Source: a virus. Taken from it: DNA of 64,000 nt. This document shows positions 304 through 36,512 of this stretch, piece by piece (positions within the stretch are counted from its first letter, which is position 1; the number at the start of each line of letters is the position of its first letter). The position numbers and the translations under genes are program-made. Location: positions 41,375-105,374 of the IMG/VR virus record IMGVR_UViG_3300043775_002158. One strand, written 5' to 3'. The notes under the pieces were generated by a model. That model saw only the letters and a list, made by a program, of their open reading frames with translations, did no database searches and was not told the DNA's origin.

Positions 304-315
304 CATATTTATATT

Positions 316-414
316 CAGAGTTTGGCGGTTTGGTCGCCGTTAAATGATAACTCTGTAAACGAAAAGGAGGTATTCTAAATCTCGACAAAGGGTCTTCGGA
401 CCTTTTGTTGTTTT
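316..414 (+). ncRNA. candidate ~100-nt small RNA carrying an exposed Shine-Dalgarno sequence
   Basis: TATTTATA at 306-313; stem CAGAGTT/AACTCTG enclosing GGCGG/TCGCC; AAAGGAGGT at 363-371 with no following start codon; cUUCGg hairpin 387-406 plus U-rich tail. Confidence 0.45.
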
Positions 415-419
415 ATAGA

Positions 420-444
420 AAAACCCATCTAAATGATGGGTTTT
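420..444. terminator. bidirectional-type intrinsic terminator downstream of tmRNA
   Basis: AAAACCCATC-taaat-GATGGGTTTT inverted repeat. Confidence 0.65.
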
Positions 445-477
445 ATCTTAGGTCGAAAACTCAAAAAAGTCGAAGTG

Positions 478-873
478 TGGAGACGAAGGGAGTCGAACCC
501 TTGTCTTTCCTGTTCAACAATAAATGACTACACGTTTATTCAATTGGTTCTCAATTGACAAATAGAAGGTTAATTACAGGAAACCAACAATACTGTCCCT
601 AACCGGATTTTCATGAGCCGTCAAGTTTGCTCCAACACTCTTGGGTGGTGTTACACCGTAAGGACTTCTGTTCCAAGGTTATATGTCCGTCGACCCGTGC
701 GTAGAGGCTAATCTAATTAGGCTGCTACTTTAGAAGTTGCAAGTAAACCTGCAATTTCCATTGTGTTGTAAACGTTGTCGTTTAATTTTCTTCACCGTGG
801 ATTAAAGTCATAGATGAATTCTGACTACGTGCCATTTACCCCTGATACCTGAAATCAAATCCAAGGCGTCCCC
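478..873 (-). ncRNA. ssrA: tmRNA; tag (A)DNVYNTMEIAGLLATSKVAA* at 779..717
   Basis: 5' GGGGACG pairs with 3' CGTCTCC-A with a G3:U70 wobble; T-arm AAGGGTTCGACTCCCTT; internal short ORF ending Ala-Ala-stop; 396 nt. Confidence 0.93.
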
Positions 874-2685: not shown

Positions 2686-3553
2686 GGCCGTATGGTTTTA
2701 CATACATTCACCACCACTTTGTTTTTCTAAACAAAGAAAATAAAACTCTGAGAATACAAGTTTTAACAATCGACTTAGGAACATTATTTGTTTCTTTCCC
2801 TTTCCACAACCTTTTGAGTTGTACCGATCAATGACGGTCAATTAGATTAACCAATCCTAAAGTCATCAGATACTCTTTTATTACTTATTACTCAACAAAT
2901 CTGCCGACCTGTTTCAACCTTGCGGGTTTAGAGAACTTTCTTAAAAATCATATTGGGATTGAGTCCCTTTATGGCCGTGAACCCCTCACGACTAAGTAGT
3001 CACCTGTCTCCAATGACTGACGAACACTTTTTCTTTTTATGTATGATTTTTATACCAAAATAAAAATTTAGTTTTCCGAATTGAGAAAGTAGTGGTTCGT
3101 CACCTAGCCAAGTTATCTTTTGAACAACTCGATACTAAACTACTCTCTGAAGTGTCCCCACCTCCATATTTTTGGTTTCCTTCGAGATTAAACCCTTGGT
3201 AGGATTTATTCAAGGACACTAACAGCACCACCTGTTTTTTGTCATACCTTCCATCTTACGATGCTACGGTTTTAAGACCACCATTGTATTGAATTACGCA
3301 ATAATAAAGTCGGATAACTATACTTCTTACATTAATTCTATGGATTATTCTTATTGATGTTCCCATCTCAACCAAACAACTCGGATTGCTTGGTCATCCA
3401 ACCCTTTCGCTACGGAGTTACCCTCACTACTTCAGGTTAAATGATATTCCACTTGTCTACTCGAGATCTCTTTCGAAATCCGCAACTTACCCCAACCAAG
3501 GGTTTGTCACTTTATCCCACTTTCGTGGTTTATTTTATTGACTATAGACGGCC
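2686..3553 (-). ncRNA. large structured ncRNA (~870 nt), GOLLD-like candidate
   Basis: No credible ORF; ends pair (GGCCGT 3553-3548 with ACGGCC 2691-2686); GNRA-type hairpins at 3517-3528, 3252-3263, 2916-2928; own promoter and terminator; near a tRNA cluster. Confidence 0.7.
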
Positions 3554-3604
3554 AATATTTTTATTCAAAGAACATTATCTTTTGGGTTATTCACCCTTCT
3601 TTTA

Positions 3605-3635
3605 CAAAGATAAGAAATGTTTTCTAATATTCAAA
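3605..3635 (-). promoter_or_regulatory. Bacteroidota sigma-A promoter TTTG-N19-TATCTTTG
   Basis: Exact -33/-7 consensus and spacing upstream of the large ncRNA. Confidence 0.75.
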
Positions 3636-6019: not shown

Positions 6020-6033
6020 AATTTTAAATTTAG

Positions 6034-6105
6034 TATTCCCGACGGGATTCGAACCCGTATTACCTCCGTGAAAGGGAGGTGACCTAACCATTAGTCGACA
6101 AGAAC
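6034..6105 (-). tRNA. tRNA-Glu(TTC)
   Basis: Anticodon arm CCTCC-CTTTCAC-GGAGG, T-loop TTCGAAT; acceptor stem has three G:U pairs; no encoded CCA. Confidence 0.85.
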
Positions 6106-6222
6106 AGATCCCGTTTTTTTTCTACATTTAGCCCAAACACCAGTAGATCAGTATTTTGGGTTTTGACGCGAGAAGTCTACAAGGTTTCCCCATTAGACCG
6201 TTACCACGGGCAAACTCTACAG

Positions 6223-6310
6223 CGGAGAGAGTAGGATTCGAACCCACGGGCCAGTTTCCCGGCCTCCTGATTTCAAGTCAGGTGCAATAGACCAACTCTA
6301 CCATCTCTCC
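6223..6310 (-). tRNA. tRNA-Ser(TGA)
   Basis: CCTGA-CTTGAAA-TCAGG, long variable arm, acceptor GGAGAGA/TCTCTCC, G discriminator. Confidence 0.93.
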
Positions 6311-6504
6311 GTTGACACCTTTATTTATCCAACTCACAGGTGTCTTAGCTGTCCCCTTTCGGGTTAGGAATAATCATTTCGTCCTCACGAGGTCGGGGTG
6401 ATGTCCCCTGACGTTCTTCCTATACGTCAATGTACGTTTCCATATGGTTGTCAAACCATTTCTCATCATATTGGACATACTATTCGGTGACTAACCGAAT
6501 CGTG

Positions 6505-6578
6505 CGGAATGTACGGGACTCGAACCCGTGGGCTTCTCCGTGACAGGGAGACATGATAACCAACTTCACTAACACTCC
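6505..6578 (-). tRNA. tRNA-Asp(GTC)
   Basis: TCTCC-CTGTCAC-GGAGA, T-loop TTCGAGT, G discriminator. Confidence 0.92.
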
Positions 6579-6584
6579 GTTTTG

Positions 6585-6660
6585 TGGGTGAGTTTGGATT
6601 CGAACCAAAGACCTAAAGTTTATGAGACTTTTGCTCTAAAACCAGCTGAGCTACACACCC
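6585..6660 (-). tRNA. tRNA with CAT anticodon (Ile2 or elongator Met)
   Basis: AAAGT-CTCATAA-ACTTT; G1:C72 paired and no GGG/CCC anticodon stem, so not an initiator. Confidence 0.88.
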
Positions 6661-6752
6661 TATTAGTCTTTTCCTTACCTCTTAATAACCACATTGCCAT
6701 CCCGGTGTTACTGCCGGGTGCTTACCACTTGCGTGGAGTGATTATCACGTTG

Positions 6753-6825
6753 CGCTCCCTGAGGGTCACGATCCCCCGACTTCAAAATTAACAGTTTTGC
6801 GCTCTACCAACTGAGCTAAGGAAGC
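6753..6825 (-). tRNA. tRNA-Asn(GTT) with atypical T-loop
   Basis: CAAAA-CTGTTAA-TTTTG; T-loop ATCGTGA. Confidence 0.85.
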
Positions 6826-7087
6826 GTGTTTGATTCCAACCCAACTTAAGTTGCACCATCCGTGTCATGCACTGGTTAACAAAGTCCTCGTTGAGTTAGT
6901 TTCAAAAAGTTACAGGTTTTTCGTACCATCTATGTACATCATAACAGACATAGTCTGTGGTTACTTTTCGCTTAATGGTTAATTACTCCAACTTATAGTA
7001 ACTCTACTCTCACCGTTCTACATCTAGATTCAAACGGATAGTTGAGATTCATAGACAGTGGGGTCACACCACCGTCGTCACCTGTTG

Positions 7088-7160
7088 AGCCCAAACTCAG
7101 ACTCGAACTGAGGACCTAATCATTACAAATGACTTGCTCTACCAACTGAGCTATCCGGGC
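7088..7160 (-). tRNA. tRNA-Thr(TGT)
   Basis: AGTCA-TTTGTAA-TGATT, D-arm GCTCAGTTGGTAGAGC, T-loop TTCGAGT. Confidence 0.92.
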
Positions 7161-23201: not shown

Positions 23202-23304
23202 TAAAAAAACCCCAACGAGATGTCGGGGTTTAAGGTCTTTGGGTGGGTTCAACCCCACTTACTTTTGAAAAAACGAAAAGGTAATCGACAAAGAGAACCT
23301 ATAG
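23202..23304 (-). ncRNA. candidate ~100-nt small RNA
   Basis: TATTTATA at 23315-23308; closing stem AGGT..CTTTG/CAAAG.ACCT, inner GTGGG/CCCAC hairpin, terminator AAACCCCGAC/GTTGGGGTTT plus U tract. Confidence 0.4.
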
Positions 23305-23348
23305 TGATATAAATATATATAACTTTAGTAAAAAGTCAACTATTTATA

Positions 23349-35488: not shown

Positions 35489-36226
35489 ATGAACAATTTC
35501 GGAATTATTAAAACCAAATTATTAAATAAATTAACTGAATCTTACGCTAATGAAAATAAAGCTGAGATTAAAAATATATTAACCACAATTAAAGAAAACA
35601 AAGATTTTAAAGAAATGTATTTGTTTTATGAAGAAATTGAAGGTAAGCACATTTCAGATAAAGAAACTGCAAAGTTGTATGTTGAGGGTTTAAGTACAAT
35701 CTTAATTCAAAGTAATGAAAATTTAAAGACGTTCTGTGAATCATTAGATAAAACTTTAGATAATAATGAAGTTGTTTCAAATGAATTATATCAAGCGTTA
35801 GACACTTTAACTGAAAGTGATAAACTAAGTAATATTGAAAAGAAAGTTATTGCTAAGAAAAAATTAGTAGAACACTTAACAACTAAGAAAGAAATTACTG
35901 AATCAAAAGATACAACATTAGTACCAAACGAAACATTATTAAATGCTGTATTGGCAAATAATTTTAATGTTTTATATTCTAACACATTATCTGAATCACA
36001 AAAAGAAGAATTAAAGAATATTCTTTCTATTCCTTATGAAGATTTATTAACAAAAACAAGTGAATTAAAAGAATCAATTAATAATCAAGTATCAACACTT
36101 TTAAGTGAATCAAATGAAACAGATTTAATAAATAAATTAAAAGCTGTTAAAGATGAAGTAAATCAAATGTTTCCGTCGAGATACAATTACTACAGATTAA
36201 ACGAATTAAAAAATGGACTTAACTAA
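35489..36226 (+). CDS. hypothetical helical head-module protein
   Basis: Follows the portal; multiple L/I-x-E sites. Confidence 0.7.
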   Translation: MNNFGIIKTKLLNKLTESYANENKAEIKNILTTIKENKDFKEMYLFYEEIEGKHISDKETAKLYVEGLSTILIQSNENLKTFCESLDKTLDNNEVVSNELYQALDTLTESDKLSNIEKKVIAKKKLVEHLTTKKEITESKDTTLVPNETLLNAVLANNFNVLYSNTLSESQKEELKNILSIPYEDLLTKTSELKESINNQVSTLLSESNETDLINKLKAVKDEVNQMFPSRYNYYRLNELKNGLN

Positions 36227-36234
36227 GTCCATTT
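36211..36234. terminator. palindromic hairpin spanning both convergent stop codons
   Basis: AAATGGACTT-aact-AAGTCCATTT flanked by A and T tracts. Confidence 0.65.
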
Positions 36235-36410
36235 CTTTTTTGTTGTATATAAACCGCTTTTAATTTTTGAGTTCTTTTCTTAACTGATGGTTTAACAAAT
36301 ACTTGTCTATCCCTTAATTGTTGAACTTGTTTTACTTTTTGAACTTTATGTTTGTAAGTTCTAAGTGCAGTCTCAATACTTTTTTCTTTTGATAGGTCTA
36401 CTATAATCAT
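36219..36410 (-). CDS. rpsU: ribosomal protein bS21
   Basis: SIETALRTYK.K...LRDRQVFVKPSVKKR...KAVY54. Confidence 0.9.
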   Translation of the reverse strand: MIIVDLSKEKSIETALRTYKHKVQKVKQVQQLRDRQVFVKPSVKKRTQKLKAVYIQQKRNGLS

Positions 36411-36512
36411 ATATTATAAATATAACACAAATATATGAAATTATTTTTGGTTATTCCAACTATTTTATTTATTTTTTATAAACACCATAATAAATAATAA
36501 TATGAAATATTA

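What the first reader, a model, noticed from the sequence alone, without database searches (positions are those of the whole stretch)
306..414. Candidate late sRNA presenting a perfect Shine-Dalgarno sequence with no ORF: an anti-SD decoy?
The order is late motif, hairpin, unpaired AAAGGAGGT (363-371), then a UUCG terminator, with no start codon after the SD. The protein genes I inspected lack SD motifs. Known: Bacteroidota ribosomes hide the anti-SD via bS21/bS18/bS6, and host rpsU is autoregulated through a strong SD. Inference: this RNA could capture ribosomes with an exposed anti-SD (bS21-deficient) and work with the phage bS21 to control translation.
Basis: inference. Interest (0 to 1): 0.7.

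Follow-up and report, generated by a model that had tools for sequence, protein, structure and literature searches.

The report
Phage small RNA mimicking rpsU ribosome-binding site
A large lake phage that carries its own ribosomal protein bS21 also keeps a conserved, protein-less RNA of about 100 bases whose exposed stretch is a perfect 13-14-base match to the normally hidden tail of Bacteroidota 16S rRNA, so it probably acts as a start-less decoy for ribosomes, and a second phage RNA has co-evolved to pair with it.

Summary
Window 306-414 holds a promoter box (TATTTATA), a hairpin, a largely unpaired AACGAAAAGGAGGUAUUC, then a UUCG intrinsic terminator, with no ORF.

It is a real RNA gene. 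At least 57 distinct copies occur in 80+ IMG/VR phage contigs, with an invariant box, covarying stems and no Rfam match. bS21 is encoded on 16 of 20 contigs tested.

The SD-like stretch is extended. 47 of 55 copies have 12-14 contiguous base pairs (median -20 kcal/mol) with one of two natural Bacteroidota 16S tails (GAAUACC... or GAACACC...). Host rpsU leaders show the same A/G alternation. This is the signature of the rpsU site that only bS21-free ribosomes use (McNutt 2023).

A second conserved phage sRNA (window ~23204-23303, minus strand) pairs with both flanks of the SD. Compensatory changes support this pairing.

Best reading: a start-less rpsU-site mimic that binds the 16S tail, gated by the partner RNA. 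The function is inferred. Expression data were inconclusive.

This scan has already noted the same RNA, and the pair, on other phage genomes. I found no published description in Rfam, the two bS21 papers read or one full-text search.

The parts
306..313 (+). Promoter box TATTTATA of RNA A. The transcription start is inferred at about 316-320.
   Evidence: TATTTAT is invariant in 55/55 aligned copies. The same box sits 3-7 nt before the ATG of 25 phage ORFs, including bS21, against 0/61 in a reversed-genome control. The upstream A-tract/T pattern is shared with the RNA B promoter.
316..355 (+). Hairpin P1. It has a conserved apical GGUUUGGUCGCC (327-338) and a conserved GAUAA bulge (346-350).
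   Evidence: It appears in the MFE fold. Six of 9 pairs show changes on both sides, and 95.5% of cells are paired.
358..375 (+). Largely single-stranded AACGAAAAGGAGGUAUUC. Positions 363-375 are a perfect 13-nt complement of GAAUACCUCCUUU, and 362-375 are a 14-nt complement of a Saprospiraceae 16S tail.
   Evidence: The duplex with the tail is -20.2 kcal/mol and the opening cost is about 2 kcal/mol.
379..384 (+). Invariant AUCUCG. It resembles an anti-SD, can pair with GAGGU at 367-371, and lies where a start codon would be.
   Evidence: It is invariant apart from one copy that reads AUCUAG (54 of 55). The predicted mini-helix shows no covariation.
383..414 (+). Intrinsic terminator: a 12-bp stem, a UUCG loop and a U tail.
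   Evidence: Three of 8 pairs have double changes. The G-U pairs fit only the + strand.
357..367 (+). Block 1 of pairing with the partner sRNA (RNA B): AAACGAAAAGG.
   Evidence: The length of the A-run covaries with the U-run of RNA B.
382..392 (+). Block 2 of pairing with RNA B: UCGACAAAGGG. This is also the 5' strand of the terminator.
   Evidence: RNA B reads GCCGA where RNA A reads CGGC.
23204..23315 (-). Partner sRNA gene (RNA B). It has a TATTTATA box at 23308-23315, a 5' seed CUCUUUGUCGAUUACCUUUUCGUU at about 23295-23271, a hairpin and a terminator.
   Evidence: Its 18-mer occurs in more than 119 IMG/VR contigs. There is no Rfam match.
36219..36410 (-). Phage bS21 gene (63 aa). It has a TATTTATA box 4 nt before the ATG, no SD, and Tyr at position 54.
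421..445 (.). Second hairpin between RNA A and the convergent tmRNA gene. It is probably the tmRNA terminator.

Best explanation
Window ~316-416 (+) is an independently transcribed phage small RNA of about 100 nt, called RNA A here. It imitates the extended Shine-Dalgarno initiation site of the host gene rpsU (bS21) but has no start codon or ORF.

Its exposed segment AAA(A)GGAGGU(A/G)UUC forms a 13-14-bp helix with the 3' tail of Bacteroidota 16S rRNA. In these bacteria bS21, bS18 and bS6 bury that tail, and only bS21-free ribosomes use it, to translate rpsU (established: McNutt 2023). RNA A would therefore bind bS21-free small subunits, or pull the tail out of its pocket.

This could have two effects. 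It could compete with host rpsU mRNA and block re-synthesis of host bS21. It could also keep the platform open for the phage's own bS21, which is made from an SD-less, box-type start.

A second phage sRNA, RNA B, pairs with both flanks of the SD. RNA B would mask RNA A or strip it off, acting as an off-switch or timer.

Shown here: the RNA family, its structure, the promoter box, the extended complementarity, covariation with tail variants, and co-evolution with RNA B. Inferred: transcription ends, ribosome binding, and the effect on bS21.
For: Conservation and structure:
- 82 IMG/VR contigs match a hairpin-only pattern. Their 55 distinct copies keep GGAGG (52 exact; 3 G-U-compatible variants) while the linkers vary in length and sequence.
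- Two further copies found by covariance model keep AACGAAAAGGAGGUGUUC.
- Both stems covary. 97% of cells are paired and 0/500 shuffles reach the observed score.

Promoter:
- The box is invariant and is shared with 25 gene starts and with RNA B.

Match to the 16S tail:
- 47/55 copies have 12-14 contiguous WC pairs with GAAUACCUCCUUU or GAACACCUCCUUU. Median dG is -20.2.
- rpsU spans -14 to -21 with mode -20, and is the only such gene in Flavobacteriales.
- Both tails occur in Bacteroidota.
- Host rpsU leaders read GGAGGUAU in T-tail genomes and GGAGGUGU in C-tail genomes. GGGGGUAUC occurs in both host leaders and RNA A variants.
- Both RNA A types occur within each of the four multi-member upstream-gene clusters holding typed copies, which suggests repeated switching.
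- The closest bacterial bS21 found is in a Saprospiraceae MAG. Its 16S ends GAAUACCUCCUUUU, a 14/14 match to window 362-375.
- The site is the unique extreme in the phage genome.

Context:
- Phage genes lack SDs.
- bS21 is on 16/20 RNA A contigs and on 2/2 near-complete ones.
- RNA B pairing leaves AGGU(A/G)UUC unpaired in most pairs, so it does not explain that conservation.
Against: There is no direct evidence of ribosome binding. River and lake metatranscriptome contigs cover the neighbouring tmRNA and GOLLD deeply, but cover RNA A only at depth 1-5 in 2 of 4 runs. Small RNAs are often lost in such libraries, so this is inconclusive.

Hosts of individual contigs are unknown, so the A/G match to tail variants is a parallel and not a paired test.

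The GGAGG core can be partly closed by AUCUC.

The flanks of the SD are also explained by RNA B pairing. In some clades RNA B covers the GGAGG core itself, so part of the conservation may serve RNA-RNA pairing.

The phage bS21 keeps Tyr54, so phage-loaded ribosomes probably hide the tail too. The benefit of a decoy is therefore a model, not a result.

bS21 co-occurrence is a lineage-level observation, not independent evidence.
Confidence: 0.5

Rival explanations
1. This is an sRNA/anti-sRNA (sponge) pair in which RNA-RNA pairing is the whole function. RNA B, with its 5' seed, is the regulator of some mRNA, and RNA A is its target mimic, or the reverse. The SD-like look of RNA A reflects only what RNA B recognises.
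For: The two-block complementarity (11 + 11 bp) is the best target of the RNA B seed in the whole phage genome. It is conserved in 20+ contig pairs. The compensatory changes are:
- 4A:4U in 12 distinct pairs.
- 3A:3U in at least two RNA B lineages.
- A-to-G changes tolerated as wobbles.
- GUCGA changed to GCCGA where RNA A reads CGGC.

The RNA B centre resembles an anti-SD (GAUUACCUUUUCG, GAUAACCUCUUCG, GAUAUCCUCACG).
Against: In most pairs RNA B leaves AGGU(A/G)UUC unpaired, yet that stretch is conserved and alternates A/G like the 16S tails. The next-best RNA B target in the genome is only 2 kcal/mol weaker. RNA B shows no special complementarity to sampled host rpsU sites. Block 2 is locked in the terminator stem in the co-fold.
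Confidence: 0.2
2. RNA A is a protein sponge or chaperone for bS21. The SD paired with an anti-SD-like strand mimics the SD-anti-SD helix that bS21 contacts, as stem P6 of OLE RNA does. That strand would be either the internal AUCUC or RNA B. The RNA would then bind host or phage bS21 rather than the ribosome.
For: bS21 binds an SD:anti-SD mimic in OLE RNA (PMC12054373). GAGGU and AUCUCG are both invariant at variable spacing. The RNA is linked to bS21-encoding phages.
Against: The internal helix is only 4-5 bp, weak and without covariation. A 13-14-nt perfect match to the real 16S tail, tracking its variants, is more than such a mimic needs.
Confidence: 0.1
3. It is a cis element only. It would be the structured 3' UTR and terminator of the upstream gene, or an attenuator whose read-through (perhaps opened by RNA B pairing with the terminator's 5' strand) controls what lies downstream.
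For: In 57/59 loci a same-strand ORF ends 0-13 nt (at most 66) before the box. In 24 loci the next gene is on the same strand, sometimes 11-19 nt after the terminator. RNA B block 2 overlaps the terminator stem.
Against: The upstream ORFs fall into at least 5 unrelated BLAST clusters, while the box is invariant and promoter-like. The downstream gene is on the opposite strand in 34 loci, including this one, where it is a convergent tmRNA. So no conserved cis target exists.
Confidence: 0.08
4. It is a tiny translated ORF that starts at the near-cognate AUC (379-381) behind the SD.
For: AUC lies 6-12 nt after GGAGG in all copies except one pair of divergent clades.
Against: The reading frame is not conserved. 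The stems covary at the RNA level. An in-frame UAA sits in the loop of many copies, while other copies have no stop before the terminator.
Confidence: 0.02

Closest known systems
Extended Shine-Dalgarno initiation region of rpsU (bS21 autoregulation) in Flavobacteriales and other Bacteroidia (Jha 2021, PMC7797042; McNutt 2023, PMC9976891)
   Same: It has 9-14 contiguous pairs with 16S nt ~1532-1544 and a duplex of about -20 kcal/mol. It is unique in its genome. The SD variant tracks the tail variant. Even the flank (A)ACGA(G/A)A..GGAGGU resembles some host leaders.
   Different: It has no start codon and no ORF. It is phage-encoded, has its own phage promoter box and terminator, is preceded by a conserved hairpin, and has an antisense partner RNA.
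sRNA / anti-sRNA (sponge) pairs, e.g. prophage AgvB acting on GcvB in enterohaemorrhagic E. coli (my own knowledge)
   Same: These are two separately encoded small RNAs with conserved, co-evolving complementarity, one looking like a target mimic.
   Different: Both RNAs are phage-encoded. No third mRNA target is known. One partner matches rRNA rather than an sRNA seed.
Decoy RNAs that titrate cellular machines by mimicry: 6S RNA (open promoter, RNA polymerase) and CsrB/RsmZ (GGA/SD-like motifs, CsrA) (my own knowledge)
   Same: The principle is the same: a non-coding RNA imitates the natural nucleic-acid ligand.
   Different: The proposed target is the 16S rRNA tail of a ribosome sub-population. 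RNA A has a single extended SD in a linker, not many GGA loops. There is no sequence or Rfam relation.
Stem P6 of OLE RNA, an SD:anti-SD helix mimic bound by bS21 (Wencker, Lyon and Breaker 2025, PMC12054373)
   Same: Both are non-coding RNAs that display SD/anti-SD-like sequence and have a link to bS21.
   Different: OLE is about 600 nt and found in Bacillota, and its binding partner is the protein. Here the internal helix is marginal, and the match is to the real rRNA tail.

Membership tests
rpsU extended-SD initiation region | At least 9-13 consecutive base pairs with the 16S 3' tail (nt 1532-1544), dG -14 to -21 kcal/mol | tested here: met
   The window copy has 13 bp (14 with a Saprospiraceae tail) at -20.2 kcal/mol. 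47/55 copies have 12 bp or more.
rpsU extended-SD initiation region | The SD is followed at 9-12 nt by a start codon and the rpsU ORF | tested here: not met
   No ATG, GTG or TTG follows and there is no ORF. The phage bS21 gene lies 36 kb away and has no SD. RNA A is therefore a mimic, not a member.
rpsU extended-SD initiation region | The SD sequence covaries with the organism's anti-SD tail | tested here: inconclusive
   RNA A occurs as GGAGGUAUUC and GGAGGUGUUC, matching the two natural tails and the host rpsU leaders. The hosts of individual contigs are unknown.
rpsU extended-SD initiation region | Used preferentially by ribosomes lacking bS21 | not testable with these tools
   This needs binding or toeprint assays with bS21-depleted ribosomes.
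sRNA / anti-sRNA pair | Two separately transcribed small RNAs, each with its own promoter and terminator | tested here: inconclusive
   Both have the box and an intrinsic terminator. Transcript ends were not observable.
sRNA / anti-sRNA pair | Extended complementarity maintained by compensatory change | tested here: met
CsrB/RsmZ-type SD-mimic protein sponges | Multiple GGA motifs presented in hairpin loops | tested here: not met
   RNA A has one GGAGG, in a linker and not in a loop.
OLE P6-like bS21-binding helix | A stable intramolecular SD:anti-SD helix | tested here: inconclusive
   A 4-5-bp GAGGU/AUCUC helix is predicted. It is invariant, shows no covariation and costs about 2 kcal/mol to open.
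Any Rfam 15 family | Score at or above the family's gathering threshold | tested here: not met
   The best hit is MicX at 23.5 bits against a threshold of 75. The whole-window gathering scan lists only GOLLD, tmRNA and tRNAs.

The most novel reading that the evidence does not exclude
The phage runs a two-RNA switch on the ribosome. RNA A anneals to the 16S 3' tail and pulls it out of the bS21/bS18/bS6 pocket. This loosens host bS21 and at the same time starves its SD-dependent re-synthesis, so that phage bS21 takes over. RNA B, a tail-like antisense RNA, then strips RNA A off by strand displacement from the two flanking toeholds, returning re-armed ribosomes to the phage's SD-less, near-leaderless late messages.
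Probability: 0.15. Interest if true: 0.95.

Novelty: new variant of a known kind. Interest (0 to 1): 0.8.

Why it matters
How phage-encoded bS21 takes over Bacteroidota ribosomes is an open question. Both the discoverers of these phages (Chen 2022) and the bS21 autoregulation work (McNutt 2023) raise it. McNutt and colleagues explicitly speculated that rpsU autoregulation is a host counter-defence.

A phage RNA that copies the rpsU docking site, in versions that match the two host tail variants, is a concrete candidate for the phage's answer. It can be tested directly with existing F. johnsoniae bS21-depletion strains, reporters and purified ribosomes.

If the reading is true, it would be the first RNA known to act as a decoy for the anti-SD tail of a specialised ribosome population. 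It would also add a co-evolving RNA partner as a control layer.

Tried and rejected
- Rfam: no family matches either RNA.
- GenBank phage collection, near and distant: no relatives, only terminator-like chance hits.
- Pfam and PHROGs on the five upstream proteins: nothing useful.
- Three of the 29 exact 18-mer hits (L009, L019, L028) are unrelated. L019 and L028 use the 18-mer as an ordinary SD of a 336-aa gene in another phage type, which is a chance match.
- Metatranscriptome contigs: tmRNA and GOLLD are deeply covered. RNA A is barely covered. Contigs cannot show ends, so this is evidence neither for nor against a discrete sRNA.
- RNA B seed against rpsU initiation regions of six sampled Bacteroidota genomes: not better than random windows, except in one. 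I therefore do not claim that RNA B targets host rpsU. An earlier, larger version of this script timed out.
- Kissing between the P1 loop and the RNA B 3' part: considered from the sequences and dropped, because RNA B varies there without matching change in RNA A.
- AUC-initiated mini-ORF: rejected, because neither the frame nor the stop is conserved.
- Covariance model search near RNA B loci: no extra copies. There is a single copy in the window.
- Taxonomy of the 16S tail variants from the genome search: not given by the tool. Only species named in McNutt Table S1 and one Saprospiraceae MAG could be assigned.

Full report
**What is there**

The window is the last 64 kb of a 105-kb IMG/VR phage contig with 31% GC. 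Position 303 ends a 352-aa gene, the last of a plus-strand block. A tmRNA gene ends at 475-477 on the minus strand. The finding sits in this convergent gap.

The sequence shows the following features:
- TATTTATA at 306-313.
- A nested hairpin at 316-355.
- AACGAAAAGGAGGTATTC at 358-375.
- ATCTCG at 379-384.
- A 12-bp stem with a UUCG loop at 383-410, followed by TTTT.

The fold beats all 200 shuffles (z = -3.6). G-U pairs in both stems fit only the plus strand. No canonical start codon follows the SD. One nuance is that GAGGU can form a weak 5-bp helix with AUCUC, which costs about 2 kcal/mol to open.

**It is a conserved RNA gene, not a chance motif**

The exact 18-mer around the SD occurs in 29 IMG/VR contigs, and 26 of them share the whole ~110-nt element.

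To avoid selecting on the SD, I scanned with a pattern taken from the hairpin plus AACG. This found 82 contigs and 55 distinct copies. In these copies:
- TATTTAT is invariant.
- GGAGG is exact in 52. The other three read GGGGG or GGGAGG, which remain compatible through G-U pairs.
- ATCTCG is invariant apart from one copy that reads ATCTAG.
- The linkers on either side of the SD vary in length and sequence.

Hairpin P1 has 6 of 9 pairs with changes on both sides, and the terminator has 3 of 8. Overall 97% of cells pair, and no shuffle or slid register comes close. A covariance model found two more copies on contigs chosen only because they hold RNA B. Both keep AACGAAAAGGAGGTGTTC. Rfam has nothing.

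**Own promoter rather than only a 3' UTR**

A same-strand ORF ends 0-13 nt before the box in 57 of 59 loci. These ORFs fall into at least five unrelated BLAST clusters, and the downstream gene points either way.

The box itself occurs 76 times in the genome. In 25 cases it lies 3-7 nt before the ATG of an ORF of 50 aa or more, including the phage bS21 gene. A reversed-genome control gives 0 of 61. The box also precedes RNA B. The region upstream of RNA A shows the same phased A-tract/T pattern as the strongly conserved RNA B promoter.

I read the box as a phage promoter element that gives very short or no leaders. That reading, and the label 'late', are inferences. None of 107 long ORFs has GGAGG upstream, as expected for a Bacteroidota phage.

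**The SD is an extended, tail-matched SD**

McNutt et al. (PMC9976891) established three points:
- In Bacteroidia the 16S tail is buried by bS21, bS18 and bS6.
- rpsU alone carries an extended SD, of 9-13 bp and -14 to -21 kcal/mol.
- Only bS21-free ribosomes exploit that SD.

Their Table S1 gives GAACACCTCCTTTCT for F. johnsoniae and GAATACCTCCTTTCT for Sphingobacterium and Pedobacter. Both variants occur among 62 sampled Bacteroidota genomes.

The window RNA reads AAAGGAGGTATTC, the perfect 13-nt complement of the T-type tail. Thirteen other copies read AAAGGAGGTGTTC, the perfect complement of the C-type tail.

Across the family, 47 of 55 copies have 12-14 contiguous Watson-Crick pairs with one of the two tails, with a median of -20.2 kcal/mol.

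Host rpsU leaders that I fetched show the same alternation. They read GGAGGTAT in T-tail genomes and GGAGGTGT in C-tail genomes. The GGGGGTATC variant is also seen in two RNA A copies.

Both RNA A types occur inside each of the four multi-member upstream-gene clusters that hold typed copies, which suggests repeated switching.

The closest bacterial bS21 to the phage protein is in Saprospiraceae MAGs. The 16S of one of them ends GGAATACCTCCTTTT, a 14/14 match to window 362-375.

In the phage genome this site is the lone extreme, and the next best run is 11 nt.

**Link to bS21**

The phage bS21 gene is at 36219-36410 on the minus strand. It has a box-type start without an SD and keeps Tyr54. Sixteen of 20 RNA A contigs, including both near-complete ones, encode bS21. 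These are the bS21 phages of Chen et al. (PMC9723584), whose paper does not mention small RNAs.

**A partner RNA**

An earlier first-reader note (e1-6051960) led me to window ~23204-23303 on the minus strand. I checked this region myself. It has its own box, a 5' single-stranded CUCUUUGUCGAUUACCUUUUCGUU, a hairpin and a terminator. Its 18-mer is in more than 119 contigs.

It pairs with RNA A at AAACGAAAAGG and at UCGACAAAGGG. This is the best target of its seed in the whole genome (-25.6 kcal/mol; the next is -23.8).

Across about 20 contig pairs the pairing is kept, with these compensatory changes:
- 4A with 4U in 12 distinct pairs.
- 3A with 3U in at least two RNA B lineages.
- A-to-G changes tolerated as wobbles.
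- GUCGA changed to GCCGA where RNA A has CGGC.

The centre of RNA B resembles an anti-SD tail (GAUUACCUUUUCG, GAUAACCUCUUCG, GAUAUCCUCACG). In some clades it covers the GGAGG core.

In most pairs, however, AGGU(A/G)UUC stays unpaired. RNA B therefore cannot explain the conservation of that stretch or its A/G alternation.

**Mechanism**

I commit to the following reading at about 0.5. RNA A is a start-less mimic of the rpsU initiation site that binds the 16S tail of bS21-free subunits, or pries the tail loose. This blunts host bS21 re-synthesis and favours phage bS21. RNA B gates it.

The rivals are:
- A pure sRNA/sponge pair (0.2).
- A bS21-protein-binding SD:anti-SD helix mimic, as in OLE P6 (PMC12054373; 0.1).
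- A cis 3'-UTR or attenuator element (0.08).
- An AUC-started mini-ORF (0.02).

**Limits**

Expression could not be established. Logan contigs of river and lake metatranscriptomes cover tmRNA and GOLLD at depths of hundreds to thousands, but cover RNA A only at 1-5. Hosts are not assigned per contig. No binding data exist.

**Relation to earlier scan notes**

After reaching these conclusions I found that this scan had already flagged the same RNA on other phage genomes. Follow-up agents had read it as an rpsU-site mimic with a co-evolving partner. Those are unpublished AI notes. My tests were run independently on this window and agree with them. I found no published description.

Noticed in passing
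window 2745-3147 (-), probably extending to about 3600: A full-length GOLLD RNA (Rfam RF02032, 296 bits). River and lake metatranscriptome contigs cover 2700-3620 at very high depth (up to about 14,000).
   Followed up: partly
window 475-873 (-): A phage tmRNA with a 20-residue tag ending in VAA. It is covered in all four metatranscriptomes laid. A convergent tmRNA lies within 1.5 kb downstream of RNA A in 22 of 57 distinct loci, often only 20-60 nt away. The reason for this recurrent adjacency is unknown.
   Followed up: partly
whole genome; e.g. window 36410-36423 (-) before bS21: The box TATTTAT(A/T) lies 3-7 nt before the ATG of 25 ORFs (0 in a reversed control). This implies leaderless or near-leaderless phage messages. 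SD motifs are depleted at gene starts.
   Followed up: partly
window 23204-23315 (-): RNA B has a strongly conserved promoter region (GACTTTTT about 17 nt before the box, with phased A-tracts). It is more widespread than RNA A in IMG/VR, with more than 119 contigs at an exact 18-mer.
   Followed up: yes
window 6033-7160 (-): A cluster of six tRNA genes (Glu, Ser, Asp, Met, Asn, Thr). Together with tmRNA, GOLLD and RNA A it forms an RNA-gene island in the first 7 kb of the window.
   Followed up: no
window 36219-36410 (-): The phage bS21 keeps Tyr at position 54, the residue whose mutation frees the anti-SD in F. johnsoniae. The phage protein therefore probably still sequesters the 16S tail.
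   Followed up: no
L016, L033 (loci of IMG/VR contigs), just after the RNA A terminator: In some relatives a same-strand gene with a VFGDS (GDSL-like) N-terminus starts 11-14 nt after the RNA A terminator. Read-through control cannot be excluded there.
   Followed up: no
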